A stretch of 64,000 bases of DNA from Calditrichia bacterium (GCA_050633245.1 JBOEGD010000012.1:8746-72745), one strand, 5' to 3'; counted from the first letter of the stretch, positions 15,644 through 36,419 are shown. Translations and numbers: made by a program. Notes: a model not told the origin generated them from the sequence alone.

Positions 15644-18310
15644 TTAGCGCAACAATAACATCTTTTTGGTGATCGTCTGTCCGACATGATTCAGCTGATA
15701 AAAATACAGCCCGCTGGCCACGCGCTCACCGAGACTGTTTCTACCGTCCCACTTCACTGTATAGCTGCCGGGATCATGGTTTCCTTCGACCAGCATTTTT
15801 ATCAACGCTCCGCGTGCATCATAAATTTTCAGCTTTACCAGGCCAGAGCCGTCTGCAACCCCATACTCAACTTCGGTGCAAAGTAAGAATGGATTGGGAT
15901 AGTTTTGCCCCAGAAAGAAGAGTGCCGGTGGCTGCTGTTCTTCAATGCCACTACCGAGCAATTCCACATAGAGAGTATCATTCGTCAAGTCGTCACTTGC
16001 TATCCGCAAGCGCGCTGTCTTTTCTCCTACATTTGTCGGTAAAAAGCTTATGGAAAGATGAATACTATCTTGAGGAGATACAAGATATGGTAACGAATCC
16101 GAAGGGAGAATAAACAACCCGGCATCCGCACCAACAATCTCGATATTCTGTATCTTGAGATCCGTCATCCCAAGGTTTAAAATGCGAATTGAGTCGGATT
16201 GCAAATCGCCAATCGGCAGTTCACCATAATCCAGCGTGTCTGGCATTACGACAATCTGTGGCACTGGCAGGGCCAGTCCGTGCAAGAGAACTTCTTGTAG
16301 ACCAATCTCCTGATCATTACTGGTAACCTGCAAAGCCACCTCTTTGATACCCACACTCTGCGGAAAAAACTGAATATCTATCAAAATGCTGTCTTGAGGA
16401 TAAATAATTTGTGGCAAAGCGAGAGGCTGAAGTTGAAATGCTAAAGAGTCTGTTCCGACGATTGTAATCTGTTGAACAGTAAGATCTGTAGTCCCTACAT
16501 TATAAACGATTACCTGCTTTGCAGCAGAACCGCCAACGGCTAATTCACCAAAATTCAGTGTGTCAGGTGAGACCTCGATTTGTGGTGAAGGCAAACCAAC
16601 TCCGACCAATGGCACTTCTAGCAGGACTTCATCAGGATCATCATTTTCAATAAGTAGCTGAACGGATTTTTCACCAATTGACGTCGGACTAAATCGTAGT
16701 GTCATCGTCGTACTAAAACCGGGCTGTAGCACATGCGGTGCATTGCCGGCGGCGATGCGAAAATGACTACTATCTGGCTCCGCAATACTGGTGCTGCTAA
16801 TTGTCAACGTCCCGCTACCCACATTTGATAGCGTTAGTATTTTATCCACAGAATCACCAACGGCAATCCCTGCAAAATTCAAGCTATCCGGCGAGATAAT
16901 AATATCAGGAATCGGTTCGATATCGACTCCGGTTCCAAAGAGGTTCAGCACCAGCGGAGACAGATTTGGATCGTTGCTTTCGATGACCAATCCGGCACTG
17001 ATATCGTTTAACTCAACCGGATGAAAGCCTACTGTCAACTGTGCGCTATCGCCGGGAGCAATGGTCATCATTCCTCCTCCCGAAAGAATGGAATACTGAA
17101 TCGGCTCTCCACTGCTGATTCGAGTCTCCGTAATAACCAGCTCAGCACTTCCGGTATTGTAAATATTCAATTGCTGACTTACCGTATCACCCAGCAGCAC
17201 TTCACCAAAGTTAAAATCAACTGGATCGGTAACAATATTCGGGGCAGCATAGGCGATTCCAGACAGGCTGACCAAAACCGGATTTTCATCTCCATCGCTA
17301 TTGTAGATTTCAAGTATCGCACTTTTATTCCCTGCAGATAGAGGTTCAAAAAACACGGTCGCTCCACGGCTTGCACCACCGGGGAGAGAAAAAGGCCCAC
17401 GATCGCCCGAAAGCGCAGACAAATTAAATTCACCACTATCTGGCCCGACAATGACGAGCGTGTCAACTACAAGAGTGCTTTGACCAACATTCGAAATAAG
17501 CAGCGAAAGATTATTAAAGAGACCAACTTCCACAGAGTCCATATCCAAAACCAGTGGAGACACCTCTATTTCCGGTGGGCCAAGAGACAAGCCTTCTCCC
17601 AGAAGCGTTATTCCAACTGGACTTTCATCGGGATCATTGCTGTAGAAATCCACTTGGCCTTCAAGCACACCCGCCATTTGAGGAGAAAAACCCATTAGTA
17701 ACGACACGAAGCCACCGGCAGGAACGCTAAACGAACCCGGAAAATTATCGCGAAAAAAGCTGGCACTACCCGGCCCGCTGATAACTGTGCTGTCTATCGT
17801 TAAGGCTGCGCCACCGTTATTGGATATTGAAAAGATAAGGCTGGTGCTATCGCCGACTTCGATTGTTGAGAAGCTCAAGGTATCAGTGTTTAGCTGAATA
17901 TCCGGAACAGGTGCAGGCACTGCGGTAGCAACAAGCTCGATTGGGTATGGATTGACACCAACATTATTACTAAAAATCAGGATCCTGGCATCTTTTTCTC
18001 CCGCAACCTGAGGCTCGAAGAAAGCTAGATTCACGTGCTGACCATTCGGCGGTAATTGAAACGGATCGTTAAACTGCAGAGAGAACTCAGCGGCATCAGG
18101 CCCGGCAAAAACAACGCTGTCTATAGATAACGTCTCAGTCCCGATATTAGAATAAATAAGCGAAGCACTACGCGTTTGACCAACCTGTGCAGTTGGAAAG
18201 AAGATGGAATCCGGACCGCTTATTTGCTGTGCTTCTGCTGTGAAAGACAGCAGAAACCAGCAAAACACTGCGATGGCACATTTTGACGCTTGTCGAATCA
18301 TTATTTTCAC
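15644..18310 (-). CDS. Secreted protein with ~8 tandem ~100-aa choice-of-anchor-D-like (ASPM/HYDIN-type Ig-like) modules and T9SS C-terminal domain
   Basis: Recurring module 'D..L.FG.V.VG.S....I.N.G...L.I.S..I.G.D...F.L….G' (e.g. LSFSTIEVGDSTSLIFSISNNGGAALTIDSTVISGPGSASF). C-terminus 'GQNYPNPF…GLYFYQL…KKMLLLR'. Signal peptide present. Confidence 0.8.
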   Translation of the reverse strand: MKIMIRQASKCAIAVFCWFLLSFTAEAQQISGPDSIFFPTAQVGQTRSASLIYSNIGTETLSIDSVVFAGPDAAEFSLQFNDPFQLPPNGQHVNLAFFEPQVAGEKDARILIFSNNVGVNPYPIELVATAVPAPVPDIQLNTDTLSFSTIEVGDSTSLIFSISNNGGAALTIDSTVISGPGSASFFRDNFPGSFSVPAGGFVSLLMGFSPQMAGVLEGQVDFYSNDPDESPVGITLLGEGLSLGPPEIEVSPLVLDMDSVEVGLFNNLSLLISNVGQSTLVVDTLVIVGPDSGEFNLSALSGDRGPFSLPGGASRGATVFFEPLSAGNKSAILEIYNSDGDENPVLVSLSGIAYAAPNIVTDPVDFNFGEVLLGDTVSQQLNIYNTGSAELVITETRISSGEPIQYSILSGGGMMTIAPGDSAQLTVGFHPVELNDISAGLVIESNDPNLSPLVLNLFGTGVDIEPIPDIIISPDSLNFAGIAVGDSVDKILTLSNVGSGTLTISSTSIAEPDSSHFRIAAGNAPHVLQPGFSTTMTLRFSPTSIGEKSVQLLIENDDPDEVLLEVPLVGVGLPSPQIEVSPDTLNFGELAVGGSAAKQVIVYNVGTTDLTVQQITIVGTDSLAFQLQPLALPQIIYPQDSILIDIQFFPQSVGIKEVALQVTSNDQEIGLQEVLLHGLALPVPQIVVMPDTLDYGELPIGDLQSDSIRILNLGMTDLKIQNIEIVGADAGLFILPSDSLPYLVSPQDSIHLSISFLPTNVGEKTARLRIASDDLTNDTLYVELLGSGIEEQQPPALFFLGQNYPNPFLLCTEVEYGVADGSGLVKLKIYDARGALIKMLVEGNHDPGSYTVKWDGRNSLGERVASGLYFYQLNHVGQTITKKMLLLR

Positions 18311-23052: not shown

Positions 23053-23547
23053 ATGGATCTGTTTCAAATTGCCCTTGCTTTATCAACTTTGCTGTGTTCG
23101 TTAGTTGCAGGATTTCTATTTGCTTTCGTAATCGTGGCTATGCCGGGAATAGGCGCATTAAATGACCACGACTTTCTACAGGCCTTCAAAGTGATGGATC
23201 GCGTAATTCAAAATAATCAGCCGATCTTCATATTGGTTTGGGCTGGCTCGGTGATCCTGTTGGCAATTACAGCGGTGCTCTCTATTTGGCACTTGGAAGG
23301 CGTAAACCGTCTGCTGATAATCGGCGCTGCAGCGATCTATTTCTTCGCAGTACAATTGCCGACCGTTATTGTTAATGTGCCGTTAAACAACCAGCTGCAG
23401 GCACAGAGTCTTTCATCAATGAACGAATCGGAACTACAGGTGGCAAGAAAACAGTTTGAACCTCGTTGGGTGCGCTGGAATGCTATTCGAACAATCTTTG
23501 CGATAGTAACATCCACGCTGCTAATCATTCTGTTAATAAGACTGTAA
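23053..23547 (+). CDS. DUF1772-family membrane protein (anthrone-oxygenase-like)
   Basis: 'ALSTLLCSLVAGFLFAFVIVAMPGI…' N-terminus and 4-TM layout are typical of DUF1772. Confidence 0.65.
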   Translation: MDLFQIALALSTLLCSLVAGFLFAFVIVAMPGIGALNDHDFLQAFKVMDRVIQNNQPIFILVWAGSVILLAITAVLSIWHLEGVNRLLIIGAAAIYFFAVQLPTVIVNVPLNNQLQAQSLSSMNESELQVARKQFEPRWVRWNAIRTIFAIVTSTLLIILLIRL

Positions 23548-28200: not shown

Positions 28201-29793
28201 TTGGATAACAAAAAAGCAAAAATACCAGAGCTGCTGCAAGATAAAGGCGGGCTGAAAAGCGGCGTTTCCAGGGAAGTCTCCCGGGAAACCGGTGCTCCGG
28301 AGGCCATGATTTATGGCGTCGGCAGTTTTTTTCATCTTCTTTCAAACCCCGACACTAAGGTACGAGTGTGCACCGGCCTCTCCTGCCAACTTGCCGGCGC
28401 AAATAAGATTCTTGAGGCCGCCAAAGCCGCAGGTCTTCCGGTGGAAGGCTGTTCCTGCCTGGCCGCCTGTGATCAACCTCCGGTGGTTTTGCGCGATCGC
28501 GACGTGATAACGCAGATTCAGTTATCGGATATCGAACAGACGGGCGGCGATTGGAAACAGTTAAAGCCTGAAATTGCTTCTGGTGGCTACGCATGGTCCG
28601 GGGCCGTAGGTCCTGACCGGGACGATTCCGAAAAGCAGGTTTTCAACCTGCTCGGGCAACTCGACTGGTCCGGGGCAGCTCTTAAAAAAGCAAGTGCCAT
28701 GGATCCGGATGACGTAATTCAGCTAGTGGAAGACTCCGGGCTGCAGGGACGCGGGGGAGCGGGATTTCCGGCCCATATCAAATGGAGGGCGGTGCGGGAG
28801 CAACAAGAGCCGCAGCGCTATCTGGTATTGAACGCAGATGAAGGTGAACCCGGCACCTTTAAGGACGGCGAGATTATGATGCGCCGTCCGGATCTGATAA
28901 TCGAGGGGCTGGCAATAGCCGCTCGAACCGTAGGTGCAACAGACATTTATCTCTACCTGCGTGGCGAATTTACCTTTCCCAAAATAGCGATGGCGACAGC
29001 ATTGGAAAAATTCAGTGAGCAGGGGTTACTCGATGATCTGAATTTTCACTTTCACGATGGACAGGGAGCGTATATTTGCGGTGAGGAAACCGCGCTTCTG
29101 GAAGCCCTCGAAGGTAAACGGGGAATGCCCCGGTTGAAGCCCCCTTTTCCGGTAGAAAACGGACTGTGGGGCAAACCAACCCTGATTCACAATGTTGAAA
29201 CGATTGCCTGTGTGCCGCCGGTTATGCTGCACGGAGGAGAATGGTTTAAAGACCTTGGACGCACCGAGCCCGGGACGAAGCTGTATTGCATCAGCGGACA
29301 TGTGCAAAATCCCGGAACCTACGAATTACCACTTGGCGTAACGCTGGACGAGCTGGTTGCAGAAGCCGGTGGGTACGTCGGTACGCTAAAAGCCTTTTGT
29401 CCCGGTGGTGCCAGCTCCGGGTTTCTGCCGGCCACGATGAGCAACCTGCCACTCGATTTTAAAGGCTTGGCCAAGGTTGGTTCCATGCTCGGTTCCGCCG
29501 GAATTATTGTTCTCAACAATACGGTTAATATGAAGTGGGCGGCCGGACACCAACTGCGCTTTTTTGAAGACGAGAGTTGTGGCCAATGTGCCCCCTGCCG
29601 GATCGGCACCCGTTACCTGCGAGAGGCAATAGACGCCTCTATTGAAGGAACGGAAAGCCCCGACACACCGAACCTTGAAGTTGCAGACGAGGTAGCATGG
29701 CAAATGAATGAAGGTTCTATTTGCGGATTGGGGCAAATTGCCGCTCTACCGCTTACCACCGCCAGGAAATACTTCCCCGAGGATTTTATATGA
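28201..29793 (+). CDS. NAD(H)-binding formate dehydrogenase beta subunit: fused NuoE-like [2Fe-2S] plus NuoF-like FMN/[4Fe-4S] (FdsB/HoxF type)
   Basis: NuoE-type cysteines 'CTGLSC…GCSCLAAC'. NuoF motifs 'GRGGAGFP' (FMN) and 'ESCGQCAPCRIGT' ([4Fe-4S]). TTG start with AAAGGTG SD. Its stop overlaps the next start (ATGA at 29790-29793). Confidence 0.85.
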   Translation: MDNKKAKIPELLQDKGGLKSGVSREVSRETGAPEAMIYGVGSFFHLLSNPDTKVRVCTGLSCQLAGANKILEAAKAAGLPVEGCSCLAACDQPPVVLRDRDVITQIQLSDIEQTGGDWKQLKPEIASGGYAWSGAVGPDRDDSEKQVFNLLGQLDWSGAALKKASAMDPDDVIQLVEDSGLQGRGGAGFPAHIKWRAVREQQEPQRYLVLNADEGEPGTFKDGEIMMRRPDLIIEGLAIAARTVGATDIYLYLRGEFTFPKIAMATALEKFSEQGLLDDLNFHFHDGQGAYICGEETALLEALEGKRGMPRLKPPFPVENGLWGKPTLIHNVETIACVPPVMLHGGEWFKDLGRTEPGTKLYCISGHVQNPGTYELPLGVTLDELVAEAGGYVGTLKAFCPGGASSGFLPATMSNLPLDFKGLAKVGSMLGSAGIIVLNNTVNMKWAAGHQLRFFEDESCGQCAPCRIGTRYLREAIDASIEGTESPDTPNLEVADEVAWQMNEGSICGLGQIAALPLTTARKYFPEDFI

Positions 29794-32606
29794 AAAAAGA
29801 AAATATGCAGATGATCATAAACGGTAAAGCGATCTCCTTTACCGAAGGCGAAACTATCCTGAGTATCGCTGACCGAAATGGCTGGAAAATCCCCACACTT
29901 TGCCACGATCCGCGTCTGGACCCCGCAGGAGCCTGCCGCACCTGTCTGGTTGAAGTAGAGGGATCACGCCGACTGGTTCCCTCTTGCGCTCAAAAAGCAA
30001 CAGATGGCATGGTGGTAAGCACCGAAAGCCAACGTATAGACAGACATCGCAAGTCGCTGCTTGCTCTGTATATGACCGATCACCCGCACGATCGTGCACT
30101 TGCCGAAATAGGATCTCCAAATCAGCTGCTCGATATGGTTGAACAATTTCAGGCCCCCACCAGCTGGGGACAGATGGAATCGCAGCGCGATCACCGCGAT
30201 CACGATCATAATCCCTATATCCATTTTAATGCCGAAACCTGCATTGCCTGCGCCCGCTGTGTGCGCTATTGCGAGGAGATTGAAGCAGTCTCTGCCATTA
30301 CTTTGGCCAACCGGGGATCCAAAACAACCATCTCTACCGTTGATGATCTGTCGCTGCTGGAAACAACTTGCGAAAAGTGCGGCGGATGTATTGATGTCTG
30401 TCCCACCGGAGCAATGACGGAGAAACTACCGTTAACCCGGAGCGCAAAGCCGGAGCGCGAGCTACAAAAGGTCCGCTCCACCTGCAATTTTTGCGGCGTG
30501 GGCTGTCAACTCGATTTGAATGTTGACCCGACGGCAAACAATGGTAATGGGCAGATCGTTAAAGTGTCCAGTCCTCCTCCCGGCACCACTACAAACGACG
30601 GGAATCTCTGCGTAAAAGGACGTTTTGCTTACGACTTTATTCATCATAAAGACCGCCTTACCCAACCACTGATTCGCAGAGAAGATGGAGAATTGCACCC
30701 TGCCACCTGGGACGAGGCCCTACAAACGGCCGCAGACGGATTGCAACAGGTTGCAAAACGTCACGGCCCGGACGCGCTGGCGTTTGTCAGCTCTTCACGC
30801 TGCACGGTAGAAGAAAATTATCTGGTGCAAAAGCTGTCCCGGGGAGTCTTCCGCACCAACAATGTGCATCAATGCGCCGCCACATGACACGCTCCTACTG
30901 TGGCCGGTCTGGTCAACACGTTTGGAGCAGGTGCAATGACGAATTCAATTGGTGAGATTCGCGATGCAGATTTTCTTTTTGTTATCGGAAGCAATACCAG
31001 TGAAGCACATCCGATTATCGCGATGGAAATGAAGCAGGCGGTACGACGTGGTGCGACTCTTGTCGTAGCAGACCCTCGCGCAATCTGGATGACCTCCATC
31101 GCGGAGAAGCATATGCAGTTAAAACCGGGCACCGATGTCTGGCTGTTGAATGCCATGGCACACGTTATTGTTGACGAAGATCTGATCGATCATCAATTTA
31201 TCAATCAACAAACCGAAAACTTCGAGTCGGTGAAACAGGCGGTGGCAGCCTATACACCAGAGAAGGCGGAAGCCATTACCGGCGTATCAGCGGAGGATAT
31301 TCGCTGGACTGCCCGGCGTTATGCGACGACGGAAAAAGCGGGAATTTACTATACCCTGGGAATAACCGAGCACTCACACGGAACAGATAATGTGTATGCA
31401 CTGGCCAATCTGGTACTGATGACCGGTCATTTAGGGAAACCCTCTTCAGGTATGAACCCTCTTCGCGGACAAAACAATGTACAGGGGGCAAATGATGCCG
31501 GCGCCAGTCCTATTTTCTACCCGGGATATCAGCGCGTAGATGATCCTGAAGTTCATGCAAAATACGAAACATCCTGGGGCGTTCCTCTCTCCACCACACC
31601 AGGGCTTAATCTAAATGAGATGATGAAAGTAGCCGGGGAACGTATTAAGGCGTTCTTTATCATGGGCGAGGACATCGTTATTTCGGAGCCCAACGTGCTT
31701 CGCTTGGAAGCAGCACTCAATAATGTTGAATTTCTGATCCAGCAGGAACCCTTCTTAAATGAGACCTCTCGCTTCGCGGACGTCATTTTCCCCGCCTCAG
31801 TCTTCGCAGAAAAGGACGGTGTGTTCACAAATTCGGAACGACGGGTTCAGCGGGTACGCAAAGCAGTTAACCCACCGGGTGAGGCTCGTGTCGACTGGCA
31901 GATCCTCGCTCAACTGGCGAACAGCTGTGGTGCCGGGTGGAATTATCAAAGCCCGGCGGAAGTCTATGCCGAGATGGTGAAAGATGCTCCCAAGTTTGCC
32001 GGTATCAGTCATGAGCGCCTTGAAGAAACGCATCGGAACCCCGGCAAGAGCGGAATCCAGTGGCCCTGTCCAACTCCCGATCATCCCGGAACTGAATATC
32101 TTCACAGTAGCGGAGTGCTACGTGGTAAAGGTTTATTCCAAGCAGTTGAGTATTCTCCATCGGCAGAGCTGCCGGATGAAGAATATGGCCTGGTCCTGTC
32201 CACCGGAAGAACCCTATACCACTATAATGCTGCCACACAAACGCGACGGGAGTCTGGGCTGCATATGAAGCAATCGGAAGCCTTTATCGAAATCCATCCG
32301 CGCGATGCGAGAAAGCGCGGCGTGCAGCACAAGGACTTGGTGGAAGTGAAAACCCGTCGTGGCAGCGTAAACTTGCGGGCACTTTATTCGCGGCAGGTGC
32401 GCCCTGGCTGCATCTGGATGCCCATGCACTTTGCAGAGGCTCGGGCAAATGTCCTCACGAATGATGTAGGCGATAAGGTTACCGGAACCGCAGAGTATAA
32501 GGTCTGCGCAGCGGAGGTTAGACCTATTGAACGGGCTAAAGAAGGCGATACGCTTTTCCCAGGCGCCTATTTTCATGAAAACGGACCAGGCAATGGCAGA
32601 ACATAA
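29790..32606 (+). CDS. fdhA: Formate dehydrogenase alpha subunit (NuoG-like 2Fe-2S/4Fe-4S N-terminus plus Mo/W-bisPGD catalytic domain). One continuous gene with in-frame UGA at 30885-30887 read as selenocysteine; the ORF track shows it as two ORFs
   Basis: 29721..30887 and 30900..32606 are in the same frame and are separated only by TGA. The protein reads …NNVHQCAAT-U-HAPTVAGLVNTFG…, matching the conserved FDH active-site 'C.R.(U/C)HGPSVAGL'. Upstream are 2Fe-2S 'CRTCLVEV', 4Fe-4S 'CIACARCVRYC' and 'CEKCGGCIDVCP', and the MopB Fe4S4 motif 'CNFCGVGCQL'. Confidence 0.8.
30888..30928 (+). promoter_or_regulatory. Candidate bacterial SECIS element directing Sec insertion at UGA 30885
   Basis: Hand-folded hairpin GCUCC-UAC-UGUG-GCC-[GGUCU]-GGU-CAA-CACG-UUU-GGAGC. 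The apical loop GGUCU (30906-30910) lies about 20 nt after the UGA, as in E. coli fdhF (…UUGCAGGUCUGCACC…). Not computationally folded. Confidence 0.45.
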
Positions 32607-33359: not shown

Positions 33360-34829
33360 ATGAATTTTGTATTCTCGGGCTGCATAACAGCGCTTTTTAC
33401 ATTGACATCGCTCGCGTTCTCTCAAGGCAGCGGTAGGATAGACCTGAACAGCCTCGAGAATTATGCTAATCAGTCCCGACCATCTTATATCTTCAAAGAC
33501 AACACACCGGCAAACAACCCGATTACCGATGCAGGAGCCACCCTCGGGAGGGTTTTGTTCTACGATAAAAGGCTATCGGTAAACAATTCCGTATCATGTG
33601 CCGGCTGCCATCATCAACGGCATGCTTTTGGCGACCCCAATCAGGTCAGCACCGGTGTAAACGGTATAACAGGCCGCCATTCCATGCGGCTCATCAATAC
33701 GCGCTTCGCTAGAGAATGGCGCTTCTTCTGGGATGAGCGTGCCGCCTCACTGGAACAACAATCTACCATGCCGCTTCAGGATCACATTGAAATGGGATTT
33801 AGCGGAACAATGGGTGACCCGGAGCTCGACTCACTGTTAAACAAAATGTCGACACTGGATTATTATTCTGTCCTCTTTGACTTCGTATATGGAGACCCGG
33901 GAATATCCGAGGAACGTATACAACTGGCAATGGCCCAGTTTATTCGCAGCATAGAATCCTTCGACTCACGCTTCGACGAAGGGCTGACGCAAACCGGAAA
34001 CATGCGCGTTAATTTTCCAAACTTCACTGAATCCGAGAATGATGGCAAGTTGCTGTTTTTGAACTTTCCGTTTTTTAATAATGACGGAGAGCGTGTTGCA
34101 GGCGGTGCAGGCTGCGCCTTTTGTCACAATCCGCCGGAGTTCAACATAAGAGCGGGTTCCGGAAATAACGGCTTTACACGCAAAATCGGCGGCGGCAAAG
34201 ATTTCAGTATTACCCGTTCCCCTACACTGCGCGATATCGCAGCTGCAAACGGGGACTTACACGGTGGACTTATGCATACGGGAGACAGGAATACCTTACA
34301 AGAAACGATCGATCATTATGATGATATCCTTATCGAGACAGGCAATTTTCGAATCGACCCGGTGTTGGTAGTTGGAGGCCGCGGCTGGCGCCTCAGGCTA
34401 ACACCGGGTGAGCGAATTGCCTTGGAAGATTTCATAAAAACACTGACTGGCTCGAACGTTTACACCGATCTTAAATGGTCGGATCCATTTGATGCAAACG
34501 GCGATTTGGAAATTACTCCACCTTCAACCACAGGCACTGAGCCACAGGCCCCTGCCGATGCCCTTACCTTTGAGCTTGCGCAAAACTATCCAAACCCATT
34601 CAATCCGTCCACTACTATTTCCTATCGTATCGGCCAGTCCAGCCGGGTAAACCTTAGCGTTTATAATATTCTGGGAATGGAAATCACCACACTGGTGAAT
34701 AAATTTCAGGAAGCTGGGAGGTATGATATTCCGTTTAACGCAGAGAATTTACCGGCAGGTGTATATTTTTATCGCCTGACAGCAGACAGACAGCCGGTTG
34801 AAACCCGTAAAATGCTGCTAAGTAAGTAG
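33360..34829 (+). CDS. Di-haem cytochrome c peroxidase (CCP/MauG family) with T9SS C-terminal domain – paralog 1
   Basis: 'LFYDKRLSVNNSVSCAGCHH' is the CCP N-terminal haem site and 'GCAFCHNPPEF' the second CxxCH. C-terminus 'LAQNYPNPFNPSTTISYRI…GVYFYRLTA…RKMLLSK'. Signal peptide present. Confidence 0.85.
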   Translation: MNFVFSGCITALFTLTSLAFSQGSGRIDLNSLENYANQSRPSYIFKDNTPANNPITDAGATLGRVLFYDKRLSVNNSVSCAGCHHQRHAFGDPNQVSTGVNGITGRHSMRLINTRFAREWRFFWDERAASLEQQSTMPLQDHIEMGFSGTMGDPELDSLLNKMSTLDYYSVLFDFVYGDPGISEERIQLAMAQFIRSIESFDSRFDEGLTQTGNMRVNFPNFTESENDGKLLFLNFPFFNNDGERVAGGAGCAFCHNPPEFNIRAGSGNNGFTRKIGGGKDFSITRSPTLRDIAAANGDLHGGLMHTGDRNTLQETIDHYDDILIETGNFRIDPVLVVGGRGWRLRLTPGERIALEDFIKTLTGSNVYTDLKWSDPFDANGDLEITPPSTTGTEPQAPADALTFELAQNYPNPFNPSTTISYRIGQSSRVNLSVYNILGMEITTLVNKFQEAGRYDIPFNAENLPAGVYFYRLTADRQPVETRKMLLSK

Positions 34830-34946: not shown

Positions 34947-36419
34947 TTGAATTTTGCACGCTTGAAGTATATCCCGACAGCATTAGTAGTGCTTACATCG
35001 CTCGCCTTCTCTCAAGGCAGCGGTACCATCGACCTGAACAGTCTCGAGAATTACGCTGATCAGCCCCGCCCATCCTATATTTTAAAAGACAACACTCCGG
35101 CAACCAATCCGCTTACCGATGCCGGAGCAACCCTCGGCAGAGTATTATTTTATGATAAGAGGCTCTCGGTAAACAATTCCGTTAGCTGTGCCAGTTGCCA
35201 CCATCAACAATTTGCTTTTGGTGATCCTGACCAGGTGAGCACAGGCGTAAATGGCATTACCGCCCGCCATTCAATGCGACTCATCAATACACGTTTTGCC
35301 GAAGAAAAAAAATTCTTTTGGGATGAACGTGCCGCTTCGCTGGAAGAACAAACATCGATGCCGCTTCAGGATCATATCGAGATGGGATTTAGCGGAACGA
35401 TGGGTGATCCAGAGCTCGATTCGCTGCTAAATAAAATGTCTGCACTGGAATACTATTCGATTCTCTTCAAATTTGTATATGGAGACGCAGCCATATCCGA
35501 GGCACGCATACAGCTGGCAATGGCTCAGTTTATTCGCAGTATAGAGTCTTTTGACTCACGCTTCGATGCCGGACTGACACAAACTGGCGACATAGACGCG
35601 TATTTCCCGAACTTCACTAAGGCTCAGAACTCCGGAAAACAGCTGTTTCTGGGAACACCGGTATTTAATAATGATGGCGAGCGTATTGCGGGAGGCGCCG
35701 GATGTGCATTATGCCATACTCCTCCGGAGTTCGACATTAAACCAGGCTCCGGGAATAACGGCTTTACTCGTAAACTTGGCGGTGGAAATGATTTTAATAT
35801 TACCCGTGCTCCCACCCTGCGCGACGTTGTCAAATTCAACGGCGCTTCGAACGGTGGACTCATGCATACGGGTGGCATGTTCAGCATAATCCATGTGATC
35901 GACCATTATGATAAGATTGAGATCGTGGAGGGCAACGAACAAATCGACTCGGTACTGGTGAGAAGCGGCAGGGGTTGGAACCTCCTGCTCTCTACTCAAG
36001 AGGTTAGAGATCTGTTCAGATTTATTGCAACACTGGGCGGTACAAATGTTTATTTCAACCCCAAGTGGTCCAATCCATTCGACGCAAACGGCGATTTGGA
36101 AGTGATTCCACCAACCACCACAGGCATTGAGCCTCAGGCTCCTGCTGATGCACTGACTTTTGAGCTGATGCAGAACTATCCCAACCCATTCAATCCATCG
36201 ACGACGATCTCCTACCGAGTCAGTCAATCCAGCCGGGTAAACCTAACCGTCTATAACATTTTGGGAAAGGCAATTGCCACACCGGTAAATGGATTTCAGG
36301 AAGCGGGGCGCTACAGCATTTCGTTCAACGCGGCTGATTTAACAGCCGGAATTTATTTTTATCGTTTAACTGCGGACGGCCAGCAGGTCGCAACCCGAAA
36401 AATGCTGCTGAGTAAGTAA
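34947..36419 (+). CDS. Di-haem cytochrome c peroxidase (CCP/MauG family) with T9SS C-terminal domain – paralog 2 (tandem duplicate)
   Basis: Same architecture ('SCASCHHQQFAFGD', 'GCALCHTPPEF', '…NYPNPFNPSTTISYRV…RKMLLSK'). Judged by eye at about 75-80% identity to paralog 1 at both DNA and protein level. Confidence 0.85.
   Translation: MNFARLKYIPTALVVLTSLAFSQGSGTIDLNSLENYADQPRPSYILKDNTPATNPLTDAGATLGRVLFYDKRLSVNNSVSCASCHHQQFAFGDPDQVSTGVNGITARHSMRLINTRFAEEKKFFWDERAASLEEQTSMPLQDHIEMGFSGTMGDPELDSLLNKMSALEYYSILFKFVYGDAAISEARIQLAMAQFIRSIESFDSRFDAGLTQTGDIDAYFPNFTKAQNSGKQLFLGTPVFNNDGERIAGGAGCALCHTPPEFDIKPGSGNNGFTRKLGGGNDFNITRAPTLRDVVKFNGASNGGLMHTGGMFSIIHVIDHYDKIEIVEGNEQIDSVLVRSGRGWNLLLSTQEVRDLFRFIATLGGTNVYFNPKWSNPFDANGDLEVIPPTTTGIEPQAPADALTFELMQNYPNPFNPSTTISYRVSQSSRVNLTVYNILGKAIATPVNGFQEAGRYSISFNAADLTAGIYFYRLTADGQQVATRKMLLSK

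What the first reader, a model, noticed from the sequence alone, without database searches (positions are those of the whole stretch)
29790..32606. Formate dehydrogenase alpha subunit is one selenoprotein gene; the ORF track splits it at an in-frame UGA
ORFs 29721..30887 and 30900..32606 share a frame and are separated only by TGA at 30885-30887. Translating through gives …NNVHQCAAT-U-HAPTVAGLVNTFGAGAM…. The UGA falls exactly on the catalytic Sec/Cys of Mo/W-bisPGD formate dehydrogenases (consensus C.R.[U/C]HGPSVAGL), and the following His is conserved. Automated callers would report two fragments or a pseudogene. A Sec-type enzyme also implies selA/selB/selC/selD elsewhere in the genome, which fits an anaerobic lifestyle.
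Basis: partly seen in the sequence, partly recalled or inferred. Interest (0 to 1): 0.75.

Follow-up and report, generated by a model that had tools for sequence, protein, structure and literature searches.

The report
Selenocysteine-containing NAD-linked formate dehydrogenase gene
The two adjacent reading frames are one ordinary gene for a formate dehydrogenase whose catalytic residue is selenocysteine, encoded by a recoded UGA stop codon; this enzyme family and this operon type have already been described.

Summary
One CDS (29790-32606, +, 938 codons) carries a single in-frame TGA at 30885-30887.

- The TGA aligns with Sec140 of E. coli FdhF and Cys386 of R. capsulatus FdsA. The catalytic His and Arg are present.
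- The same codon is TGA in 79 of 80 related loci from many phyla, and Cys forms exist in the same clade.
- Both halves are under purifying selection.
- A hairpin 16-32 nt after the UGA has the same GGUCUG loop position as the E. coli fdhF SECIS. Two Val wobble positions covary (CG/GC/UA/UG, never unpaired).

The gene overlaps an upstream NuoE-NuoF fusion gene by 4 nt (ATGA). The architecture is that of the two-subunit NAD-linked MeFDH1 type, with Sec in place of Cys.

The window comes from a Calditrichia MAG. Simple gene callers split the gene, but the NCBI record probably annotates one protein.

Caveats:
- No sel genes or tRNA-Sec lie in the window, and the rest of the genome could not be reached.
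- An anaerobic lifestyle does not follow.

A Sec-fdhA/nuoEF operon was described in 2016, so novelty is low.

The parts
28201..29793 (+). Beta (diaphorase) subunit gene, a NuoE-like [2Fe-2S] domain fused to a NuoF-like FMN/[4Fe-4S] domain (530 aa). Its TGA stop overlaps the fdhA ATG (ATGA).
   Evidence: Pfam 2Fe-2S_thioredx, Complex1_51K, SLBB and NADH_4Fe-4S. The best solved relative is the MeFDH1 beta subunit 7e5z_B, E 2.8e-98. It is identical to NCBI MGH1364190.1. A homologue was found in 68 of 80 related loci, immediately upstream of fdhA in most of the 26 checked.
29790..32606 (+). fdhA, formate dehydrogenase alpha subunit: one CDS of 938 codons plus stop, with Sec at codon 366.
   Evidence: A single phmmer stretch 7-911 matches RcFdsA 6tg9_A, E 9e-214. 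TIGR01591 scores 789.6 bits against a cut-off of 666.25.
29901..30623 (+). N-terminal Fe-S module. It holds four Cys for a [2Fe-2S] cluster (aa 38-66), two CxxCxxCxxxC motifs (aa 151-161 and 194-204), and the proximal [4Fe-4S] CxxCxxxC...C with the following Lys (aa 232-239 and 273-278).
   Evidence: Pfam Fer2_4, Fer4_Nqo3, Fer4_7 and Molybdop_Fe4S4.
30081..30125 (+). Segment HPHDRALAEIGSPNQ, where RcFdsA has the HxxxCxxCx5C ligands of its off-pathway dimer-interface [4Fe-4S] cluster A4. The three Cys are absent here.
   Evidence: Alignment to 6tg9_A. The motif is absent in all CAAT-clade loci examined and present in L073 and L075-L080. The role of A4 is described in PMC7171172.
30885..30887 (+). 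UGA codon 366, read as selenocysteine (the Mo/W ligand).
   Evidence: It aligns with Sec140 of FdhF and Cys386 of RcFdsA. The codon is TGA in 79 of 80 related loci and TGC in 1. Cys forms in the same clade are P0003, P0004 and P0055.
30888..30890 (+). His367, the catalytic His next to Sec.
30900..30916 (+). SECIS apical hairpin, nt 16-32 counted from the U of UGA. The loop GGUCU lies at 30906-30910 (G23, U24). In this window there are 5 pairs plus a G16.A32 mismatch.
   Evidence: fold; covariation; same GGUCUG at nt 22-27 as E. coli fdhF.
30882..30940 (+). Extent of the match to Rfam RF01989 SECIS_3. The full model (1-59) is matched, with UGA aligned on UGA.
   Evidence: 34.8 bits, gathering score 63, E 1.7e-6 for the 241 nt searched.
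31464..31466 (+). Arg559 in RGQNNVQG, equivalent to the catalytic Arg333 of E. coli FdhF.

Best explanation
Positions 28201-32606 hold a two-gene operon for a cytoplasmic, NAD-linked, Mo- or W-bis-pyranopterin formate dehydrogenase of the two-subunit MeFDH1 (Fdh1AB) type. The alpha subunit (29790-32606) is a selenoprotein. The UGA at 30885-30887 is decoded as selenocysteine by SelB/Sec-tRNA(Sec), which is recruited by an mRNA hairpin lying in the coding sequence 16-32 nt after the UGA. Sec366 ligates the metal, and His367 and Arg559 complete the active site. Electrons from formate pass through the proximal [4Fe-4S], two further [4Fe-4S] clusters and the [2Fe-2S] cluster of the alpha N-terminus to the [4Fe-4S]/FMN of the NuoE-NuoF fusion subunit, and from there to NAD+.

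Shown here: gene continuity, the Sec/Cys column, conservation of the UGA, the hairpin and its covariation, the domain and ligand inventory, and the synteny.

Inferred: actual Sec insertion, NAD+ as acceptor, the identity of the metal, and the direction of catalysis.
For: 1. There is one in-frame TGA in a 938-codon frame, and it is the only such junction in the window.
2. There is a single alignment stretch across the TGA to RcFdsA (E 9e-214) and MeFDH1 alpha. The TGA aligns with Sec140 of FdhF, Cys386 of RcFdsA and Cys of T. kivui FdhF (E. coli fdhF read directly).
3. The joined protein passes TIGR01591; the halves do not.
4. TGA occupies that column in 79 of 80 related loci from Planctomycetota, Acidobacteriota, Latescibacterota, Myxococcota, Chloroflexota and others, with TGC in one. 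Cys homologues in the same clade carry CAAT-C-H.
5. The hairpin at nt 16-21/27-32 is paired in 98.2% of cells against 89.4% in shuffles (0 of 500 shuffles reach it) and 17-63% when the partner is slid. Pair 18-30, made of two Val wobble bases, is CG 33, GC 25, UA 4, UG 3 and never unpaired. The wobble bases at nt 21, 24 and 27 are nearly invariant, while synonymous sites elsewhere are saturated, pS 0.78-0.90.
6. The loop GGUCU sits at nt 22-26, with the same GGUCUG as the E. coli fdhF SECIS. The Rfam SECIS_3 match is full-length. The hairpin fits the published bSECIS constraints on loop, stem, loop G and spacing of 16-37 nt (PMC13188914).
7. In the one Cys-form DNA examined, the hairpin is broken.
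8. TGA is a normal stop in 5 of 39 large ORFs.
9. The beta gene overlaps by ATGA, is a NuoE-NuoF fusion, and has the MeFDH1 beta subunit as its best solved relative. A homologue of it was found in 68 of 80 related loci.
10. Cys-form relatives sit in fdhD-nuoEF-fdhA-moaA-mobA-moaC-moeA operons; in one of the two contigs examined (L082) the operon lies next to a pyruvate formate-lyase gene.
11. A Sec-fdhA/nuoEF operon in a planctomycete that carries a full sel gene set is published (PMC4807772).
Against: - No tRNA-Sec, selA, selB or selD is in the 64-kb window. The rest of the MAG could not be searched, so the decoding machinery is unverified for this genome.
- The single-sequence fold is not better than shuffles (z -0.97), and the minimal hairpin alone is only about -5.5 to -5.9 kcal/mol.
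- In this window the G16-C32 pair of most relatives is a G.A mismatch.
- The lower helix 7-11/40-44 has no covariation support.
- The Rfam SECIS_3 score (34.8 bits) is below the gathering score of 63.
- The otherwise conserved Arg two residues before Sec is Ala.
- No fdhD or molybdopterin genes lie next to the operon here.
- The substrate, the metal and the NAD link are inferred from homology only.
Confidence: 0.93

Rival explanations
1. The gene is a pseudogene, a formate dehydrogenase inactivated by a nonsense mutation that happens to lie at the catalytic Cys codon (TGC/TGT to TGA).
For: A single base change from TGC or TGT gives TGA. No sel genes are visible in the window. The cassette looks horizontally acquired, so it could have landed in a host without Sec machinery.
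Against: TGA is found at the same column in 79 of 80 independent relatives. Both halves are under strong purifying selection, with no other stop or frameshift, at about 75% amino-acid identity to the nearest relative. Synonymous positions forming the hairpin are conserved or covary while other synonymous sites are saturated.
Confidence: 0.04
2. There are two real genes: a 365-aa Fe-S protein ending at the TGA and a separate molybdopterin subunit of about 556-568 aa starting at GTG 30900 or ATG 30936.
For: Gene callers produce exactly these products. Split Fe-S and catalytic subunits exist in other molybdoenzymes.
Against: The residues between the TGA and the candidate starts (HAPTVAGLVNTFGAGA) are in frame, highly conserved and include the catalytic His. 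A C-terminal product would lack the metal ligand, His367 and the first 74 positions of the Pfam Molybdopterin domain (PF00384), which lie in the N-half. Cys forms are single polypeptides of 907-917 aa. Homology to FdsA, MeFDH1 and FdhF runs uninterrupted across the junction.
Confidence: 0.01
3. The organism reads UGA as a standard amino acid (Trp or Gly, genetic code 4 or 25), or the UGA is read through by a near-cognate tRNA, so no selenium is involved.
For: UGA reassignments exist in some uncultured bacterial lineages.
Against: TGA ends 5 of 39 large ORFs, and this is the only TGA-joined pair of long open frames in 64 kb. The position is the metal-ligand column that is Cys or Sec in all relatives. 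A conserved SECIS-type hairpin follows.
Confidence: 0.01
4. The TGA is a sequencing or assembly error in the MAG.
For: MAG assemblies contain errors.
Against: The same codon appears in 79 independent assemblies. Identical neighbouring proteins are on record from an independent JGI contig.
Confidence: 0.01

Closest known systems
Sec-fdhA in an operon with nuoEF, from planctomycete isolate P1 of Porphyra and Plesiocystis pacifica SIR-1 (Kim et al. 2016, PMC4807772)
   Same: The fdhA is Sec-encoding, sits directly downstream of a nuoEF gene and is not co-localised with the sel genes. Horizontal transfer between phyla was inferred. The relatives found here are the same kind of organisms: Planctomycetota, Myxococcota and Acidobacteriota.
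   Different: The host here is a Calditrichia MAG, a phylum not mentioned in that paper. The published sequences were not aligned here, so orthology is inferred from the description and from the taxa of the relatives.
Methylorubrum extorquens MeFDH1 (Fdh1AB), PDB 7e5z/7vw6
   Same: It is a two-subunit enzyme whose beta subunit is a NuoE-NuoF fusion, and that subunit is the best solved relative of the window's beta gene. Its alpha subunit has [2Fe-2S] plus three [4Fe-4S] clusters and no His/Cys3 dimer-interface cluster (PMC10869683). The alpha subunits align at E 2.6e-194.
   Different: MeFDH1 ligates W through Cys436, whereas the window gene has Sec. The metal here is unknown. Whether MeFDH1 carries the CAR or the CAAT motif was not checked.
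Rhodobacter capsulatus FdsABGD, PDB 6tg9/6tga
   Same: This is the best-scoring solved relative of the alpha subunit, E 9e-214 with one stretch 7-911. The direct chain bis-MGD, A1, A2, A3, A5 ([2Fe-2S]), B6, FMN is the same (PMC7171172), and all its ligand motifs are present here.
   Different: RcFDH has Cys386. Its NuoE-like FdsG and its FdsD are separate subunits, and it has a fourth [4Fe-4S] cluster, A4 (H117, C121, C124, C130), at a dimer interface. The window protein lacks the three Cys, has a fused beta subunit, and has no fdsD-like gene nearby.
E. coli formate dehydrogenase H (FdhF) and its SECIS
   Same: Sec140-His141 and Arg333 align with U366-H367 and R559. The UGA is followed by CAC, and GGUCUG sits at nt 22-27 in both, with G23 and U24 in the apical loop.
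   Different: FdhF is a single 715-aa subunit of formate hydrogenlyase with no NuoG-like N-terminus. Its motif is CARV-U against CAAT-U here. The stem sequences differ: GUUGCA/UGCACC with a bulged U against GUGGCC/GGUCAA.
Rfam RF01989 SECIS_3
   Same: The match covers the full model. UGA lies on the model's UGA, the 5-bp stem and GUC loop are in the same place, and the consensus encodes U-H-G-P-T-V-A.
   Different: The score of 34.8 bits is below the gathering score of 63, and several pairs of the outer helix are not standard pairs here.

Membership tests
Mo/W-bisPGD formate dehydrogenase alpha subunit (NCBIfam TIGR01591 Fdh-alpha) | The whole-protein HMM score is above the curated cut-off. 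| tested here: met
   The joined protein (U written as C) scores 789.6 bits against 666.25, in one stretch covering profile positions 2-672. The halves alone score 144.7 and 618.9 bits.
Mo/W-bisPGD formate dehydrogenase alpha subunit (NCBIfam TIGR01591 Fdh-alpha) | A Sec or Cys metal ligand is followed by His. | tested here: met
   U366-H367 align with U140-H141 of FdhF and C386-H387 of RcFdsA.
Mo/W-bisPGD formate dehydrogenase alpha subunit (NCBIfam TIGR01591 Fdh-alpha) | The catalytic Arg (R333 in FdhF, R587 in RcFdsA) is present. | tested here: met
   RGQNNVQG begins at residue 559 here and at residue 333 in E. coli FdhF.
Mo/W-bisPGD formate dehydrogenase alpha subunit (NCBIfam TIGR01591 Fdh-alpha) | The proximal [4Fe-4S] motif and molybdopterin dinucleotide-binding domains are present. 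| tested here: met
   Pfam Molybdop_Fe4S4, Molybdopterin and Molydop_binding. CxxCxxxC...C-V-K lies at aa 232-278.
Mo/W-bisPGD formate dehydrogenase alpha subunit (NCBIfam TIGR01591 Fdh-alpha) | An Arg lies two residues before the ligand (CAR[VIL]-[U/C]-H). It is conserved in solved FDH and Nap structures but is not a curated defining feature. | tested here: not met
   The motif is CAAT-U-H here and in all 72 loci with at least 55% identity. CAR[VIL] is kept in L073 and L075-L080 and in the PDB relatives.
Mo/W-bisPGD formate dehydrogenase alpha subunit (NCBIfam TIGR01591 Fdh-alpha) | The enzyme has formate oxidation or CO2 reduction activity and binds Mo or W. | not testable with these tools
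   Only contextual support is available. Cys-form clade members lie with fdhD and moa/mob/moe genes, and in one of the two contigs examined (L082) next to a pyruvate formate-lyase gene.
Bacterial selenoprotein gene | An in-frame UGA aligns with Cys in homologues (a Sec/Cys pair). | tested here: met
   Cys at the column in RcFdsA and T. kivui FdhF, in P0001 and P0003-P0005, and in L073.
Bacterial selenoprotein gene | The UGA is conserved in orthologues from other organisms. | tested here: met
   79 of 80 loci have TGA.
Bacterial selenoprotein gene | A bSECIS follows the UGA: apical loop of 3-9 nt, upper stem of 4-16 bp, G in the first two loop positions, 16-37 nt between UGA and loop, MFE at most -7.5 kcal/mol (criteria as quoted in PMC13188914). 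| tested here: met
   The loop is GGUCU (5 nt). The stem has 5 bp here and 6 bp in most relatives. There are 18 nt between the UGA and the loop. The 48-nt fold that contains the hairpin is -16.7 kcal/mol, while the minimal hairpin alone is only -5.5 to -5.9. Covariation supports the stem.
Bacterial selenoprotein gene | selA, selB, selD and tRNA-Sec are present in the same genome. | not testable with these tools
   None is in the window. The contig is not in the positional index. No tRNA-Sec lies within 10 kb of fdhA in 60 related loci.
Bacterial selenoprotein gene | Selenium is incorporated at the UGA position. | not testable with these tools
   This needs 75Se labelling or mass spectrometry.
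Rfam RF01989 SECIS_3 | The covariance-model score is at or above the gathering score. | tested here: not met
   34.8 bits against 63. The E-value is 1.7e-6 for the 241 nt searched, and the full model is matched.
MeFDH1-type (Fdh1AB) two-subunit NAD-linked FDH | The beta subunit is a single NuoE-NuoF fusion encoded next to the alpha subunit. | tested here: met
   Pfam domains on one 530-aa protein. The best PDB hit is 7e5z_B. The genes overlap by ATGA.
MeFDH1-type (Fdh1AB) two-subunit NAD-linked FDH | The alpha subunit has one [2Fe-2S] and three [4Fe-4S] clusters, with no His/Cys3 cluster. | tested here: met
   Ligand motifs counted. The HxxxCxxCx5C motif is absent. The MeFDH1 cluster inventory is from PMC10869683.
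MeFDH1-type (Fdh1AB) two-subunit NAD-linked FDH | The metal (W) is ligated by Cys. | tested here: not met
   The ligand codon is UGA (Sec). The metal cannot be determined from sequence.
RcFDH/CnFDH-type FdsABGD | FdsG and FdsD are separate subunits, and the A4 [4Fe-4S] cluster sits at the dimer interface. | tested here: not met
   The NuoE-like domain is fused to beta. No small fdsD-like gene lies next to the operon; the 70-aa ORF at 27886-28098 matches no family and has no counterpart in related loci. The A4 Cys ligands are missing.

The most novel reading that the evidence does not exclude
The CAAT-U clade may be a functionally distinct, biochemically uncharacterised lineage of cytoplasmic NAD-linked formate dehydrogenases. 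Its features are Sec as the metal ligand, the conserved Arg before the ligand replaced by Ala, a MeFDH1-like two-subunit build, and spread by horizontal transfer among mostly aerobic or facultative heterotrophs (now including Calditrichota). If so, it would combine a selenocysteine active site with NAD(H) coupling and oxygen exposure. That combination is absent from the three NAD-linked enzymes studied in detail, which are all Cys enzymes (PMC13397495).
Probability: 0.15. Interest if true: 0.45.

Novelty: new member of a known kind. Interest (0 to 1): 0.2.

Why it matters
For annotation, the two called fragments must be merged into one selenoprotein. Otherwise the genome appears to lack a functional formate dehydrogenase and to carry two orphan oxidoreductase pieces. 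Most database relatives are stored as C-terminal fragments named 'molybdopterin-dependent oxidoreductase'.

For biology, the gene implies that this Calditrichia population decodes selenocysteine and can feed formate electrons to NAD+.

More widely, the 80-locus comparison shows that a Sec-dependent, MeFDH1-like FDH with a conserved SECIS is widespread in lineages usually regarded as aerobic. This sits uneasily with the general statement that aerobes rarely keep selenoproteins (PMC13188914). It also points to an uncharacterised enzyme type of possible interest for CO2 reduction. None of this changes any principle: FdhA is described in the review read here as the most widely distributed bacterial selenoprotein family (PMC13188914).

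Tried and rejected
1. Finding the source contig and more of the genome. Exact look-ups of two window proteins in the positional index found nothing. The genome scan returned only relatives of at most 77% identity, so the sel machinery could not be checked.
2. tRNA-Sec near fdhA in relatives. None was found within 10 kb in 60 loci, consistent with the published remark that these genes are not co-localised.
3. Rfam at gathering thresholds found nothing in the window. Only the permissive search found SECIS_3.
4. Single-sequence folding was uninformative (z -0.97).
5. The extended lower helix 7-11/40-44 from the MFE fold was rejected as supported structure. Four of its pairs never vary, and the only variable pair is unpaired in 36 of 65 sequences.
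6. Sigma-70 promoter and terminator scans gave no more sites than shuffles.
The X-variant and the alternative fragment forms are not in the collection. The way the NCBI record annotates the locus is therefore inferred from accession numbering only.
8. The absence of the His/Cys3 cluster was considered as a novel trait and dropped, because MeFDH1 has the same cluster inventory.
9. Literature searches for Calditrichota or Caldithrix together with selenocysteine found nothing relevant.

Full report
OBSERVATION

The ORF list shows 29721..30887 and 30900..32606 on the + strand in the same frame. Direct translation of 29721-32606 contains one internal stop. The real start is ATG 29790, which overlaps the TGA stop of the upstream gene as ATGA. 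The CDS 29790-32606 has 938 sense codons, with TGA at codon 366 (30885-30887), and reads ...NNVHQCAAT-*-HAPTVAGLVNTFGAGAM.... Over the whole window and both strands, this is the only place where two open stretches of at least 120 codons in one frame are joined by a single TGA. TGA is also used as an ordinary stop: TAA ends 22, TAG 12 and TGA 5 of 39 large ORFs.

WHAT THE GENE IS

The N-half carries a [2Fe-2S] domain, NuoG/Nqo3-type ferredoxin domains, the molybdopterin Fe4S4 domain and the first 74 positions of the Pfam Molybdopterin domain. The C-half carries the rest of that domain and the dinucleotide-binding domain. Against NCBIfam TIGR01591 (formate dehydrogenase alpha), the halves match profile positions 2-126 and 130-672 and score 144.7 and 618.9 bits, both below the cut-off of 666.25. 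The joined protein scores 789.6 bits in one stretch.

Against all PDB sequences, the best hits are:
- R. capsulatus FdsA, 6tg9_A, E 9e-214, one stretch covering residues 7-911;
- M. extorquens MeFDH1 alpha, E 2.6e-194;
- F420-dependent FDH, HDCR FdhF, B. subtilis YjgC/ForC and E. coli FdhF.

Residue-level alignments place the TGA on Sec140 of E. coli FdhF, on the unknown-residue (X) position of the F420-dependent FDH chain 9t1s_L, on Cys of T. kivui FdhF and on Cys386 of RcFdsA, each followed by His. I read E. coli fdhF itself from MG1655. It has TGA at codon 140 in CARV-U-HGPSVAGL, and its catalytic Arg333 in RGQNNVQG corresponds to R559 here. All ligand motifs of the direct electron chain are present: 4 Cys for [2Fe-2S], two CxxCxxCxxxC motifs, and the proximal CxxCxxxC...C followed by Lys.

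The upstream gene (28201-29793) encodes a 530-aa fusion of a NuoE-like [2Fe-2S] domain with a NuoF-like FMN/[4Fe-4S] module. Its best solved relative is the MeFDH1 beta subunit.

IS THE UGA DECODED?

A scan of one genome per species returned 80 loci with 42-77% identity, from Latescibacterota, Planctomycetota (many Pirellulaceae and Mariniblastus), Acidobacteriota, Eiseniibacteriota, Chloroflexota, Myxococcota, Desulfobulbales and others. The codon aligned to the window's TGA is TGA in 79 loci and TGC in one. Full-length Cys forms of the same clade are in the protein collection: P0003 and P0055 with CAAT-C-HAPTVAGL, and P0004 with CSAT-C-HAPTVAGL. This is the classical Sec/Cys pair signature.

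Against the four closest loci, both halves show pN 0.14-0.22 with synonymous differences saturated (pS 0.78-0.90). There are no frameshifts or further stops (identities 72-73% for the N-half and 76-81% for the C-half against the two closest loci, L001 and L072).

Directly after the UGA, the sequences form a hairpin at nt 16-21/27-32 (U of UGA = 1) with loop GGUCU at nt 22-26. On 65 distinct UGA-containing sequences:
- 98.2% of cells pair, against 89.4% in column shuffles (0 of 500 reach it) and 17-63% when the 3' partner is slid.
- Pair 18-30, formed by the third positions of two Val codons, is CG 33, GC 25, UA 4, UG 3 and never unpaired.
- Pair 21-27 has one CG-to-GC swap.
- The wobble bases at nt 21, 24 and 27 are nearly invariant.

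With synonymous sites otherwise saturated, this is strong evidence for selection on RNA structure.

The loop has GGUCUG at nt 22-27, exactly as in the E. coli fdhF SECIS. From my own knowledge of the E. coli literature, G23 and U24 are the SelB contacts. A permissive Rfam search gives a full-length match to RF01989 SECIS_3 with UGA on UGA: 34.8 bits, E 1.7e-6 for the 241 nt searched. That is below the gathering score of 63, so it is a resemblance and not a curated membership. The element fits the published bacterial SECIS constraints. The only Cys-form DNA I could fetch (L082) has the hairpin broken by a C.A mismatch, with loop GGGCU.

Weak points:
- The single-sequence fold is no better than shuffles.
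- The lower helix has no covariation support.
- This window has a G16.A32 mismatch where most relatives have G-C.

WHAT COULD NOT BE SHOWN

The window has no tRNA gene, no Rfam family at gathering level, and no selA, selB or selD among 39 large ORFs scanned. The window comes from an NCBI MAG named Calditrichia bacterium, on a contig of 226,515 bp. That contig is not in the positional index, so the rest of the genome was out of reach. The presence of the decoding machinery is therefore inferred from the intact UGA and SECIS, not tested.

HOW DATABASES TREAT THE GENE

The protein collection holds two unnamed gene calls from this very contig. One is a 365-aa N-fragment, and the other is a 556-aa C-fragment starting at the Met of MTNSIGE. 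Most of the best homologues are 550-600-aa C-fragments, some named 'molybdopterin-dependent oxidoreductase' or 'Formate dehydrogenase H'.

The NCBI accessions run MGH1364189 (S9 peptidase), MGH1364190 (NuoEF), then MGH1364192 (CBS protein). Exactly one accession is left for fdhA. None of the plausible fragment forms carries it. The record probably already holds one U-containing protein, but this is an inference because sequences containing U cannot be queried.

COMPARISON WITH WHAT IS KNOWN

Kim et al. 2016 (PMC4807772) describe a Sec-fdhA forming an operon with nuoEF in a planctomycete and in Plesiocystis pacifica. It is not co-localised with the sel genes, and horizontal transfer was inferred. 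This is the same kind of locus.

A nuoEF homologue was found in 68 of the 80 loci, immediately upstream of fdhA in most of the 26 checked, whereas none of the window's other neighbours has a counterpart in any of them apart from a single MauG-type hit. The cassette has 52-54% GC against 45.3 +/- 3.2% for the other ORFs. These points are compatible with acquisition by transfer.

Architecturally the enzyme matches MeFDH1: an alpha-beta pair, a fused NuoE-NuoF beta subunit, and an alpha subunit with one [2Fe-2S] and three [4Fe-4S] clusters (PMC10869683). It differs from RcFDH, whose extra cluster A4 (H117, C121, C124, C130) lies off the Mo-to-FMN path at a dimer interface (PMC7171172). The three Cys ligands of A4 are missing here and in every CAAT-clade locus examined, but are kept in the more distant CAR[VIL] relatives. 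The three NAD-linked metal FDHs studied in detail are all Cys enzymes (PMC13397495). I found no report in the papers read of a characterised Sec enzyme of this build.

The replacement of the conserved Arg (CAR to CAA) is shared by the Sec and Cys members of the clade. Its consequence is unknown.

The 'anaerobic lifestyle' inference does not follow. The clade is common in lineages generally regarded as aerobic, and the enzyme class is the one studied in aerobes.

VERDICT

The finding is correct, and the gene is one selenoprotein gene. It is a new member, in Calditrichota, of a known kind, and it is probably already annotated as such in the source record. Interest is low. The only mildly novel angle is the uncharacterised Sec/CAAT subfamily of MeFDH1-like enzymes.

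Noticed in passing
window 30873-30890; loci L001-L072 and L074: The Arg of the otherwise conserved CAR[VIL]-[U/C]-H active-site motif is Ala (H[QS]C[AS]AT-U-H, nearly always CAAT) in this gene and in all 72 loci with at least 55% identity. The Cys members of the clade share the change. More distant relatives and all solved FDH and Nap structures aligned keep the Arg. The consequence is unknown.
   Followed up: partly
window 30081-30125 (aa 98-112): The HxxxCxxCx5C ligands of the RcFDH dimer-interface [4Fe-4S] cluster A4 are replaced by HPHDRALAEIGSPNQ. The loss co-segregates with the CAAT motif across the loci. MeFDH1 has the same reduced cluster set, so this marks the two-subunit type and is not a new trait.
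   Followed up: yes
L056-L058, L060, L062, L063, L065, L068, L070, L071 (nt 20-38 after their UGA): A planctomycete sub-clade with the motif U-HFPTEQALVKSFG has a different SECIS. It is a perfect 7-bp stem, AAGCUCU/AGAGCUU, with loop GGUCA or CGUGA, shifted 5 nt downstream. GU is kept at loop positions 2-3.
   Followed up: partly
window 28201-32606 compared with the rest: The nuoEF-fdhA cassette has the highest GC in the window (54.1% and 52.2% against 45.3 +/- 3.2% for the other ORFs). Apart from a single MauG-type hit, its flanking genes have no counterpart in the 80 related loci. Its closest relatives (73-81% identity) are in other phyla. Together these suggest horizontal acquisition.
   Followed up: partly
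L082 1-6759 and the JGI contig of P0004: Cys-form relatives of the same clade sit in a full maturation operon, fdhD-nuoEF-fdhA-moaA-mobA-like-moaC/mog-moeA. In L082 this lies next to a pyruvate formate-lyase gene. The window has none of these accessory genes next to its cassette.
   Followed up: no
window 33360-34829 and 34947-36419 (+): Two tandem paralogous di-haem cytochrome c peroxidase/MauG-family proteins (MbnH-like) each carry a T9SS C-terminal sorting domain. At least nine further large proteins in the window carry the same sorting tail.
   Followed up: no
window 15644-18310 (-): An 888-aa choice-of-anchor-D repeat protein with a T9SS tail gives a weak domain hit to NF041425, 'OS_HP2 family (seleno)protein' (36 bits, cut-off 100). 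It has no in-frame TGA, so there is no sign that it is a selenoprotein.
   Followed up: no
window 23053-23547 (+): A DUF1772/anthrone-oxygenase-like protein has a sub-threshold match to the chryseobasin maturation helper ChrI (82 bits, cut-off 275). It sits next to a class-3 lipase-family protein.
   Followed up: no
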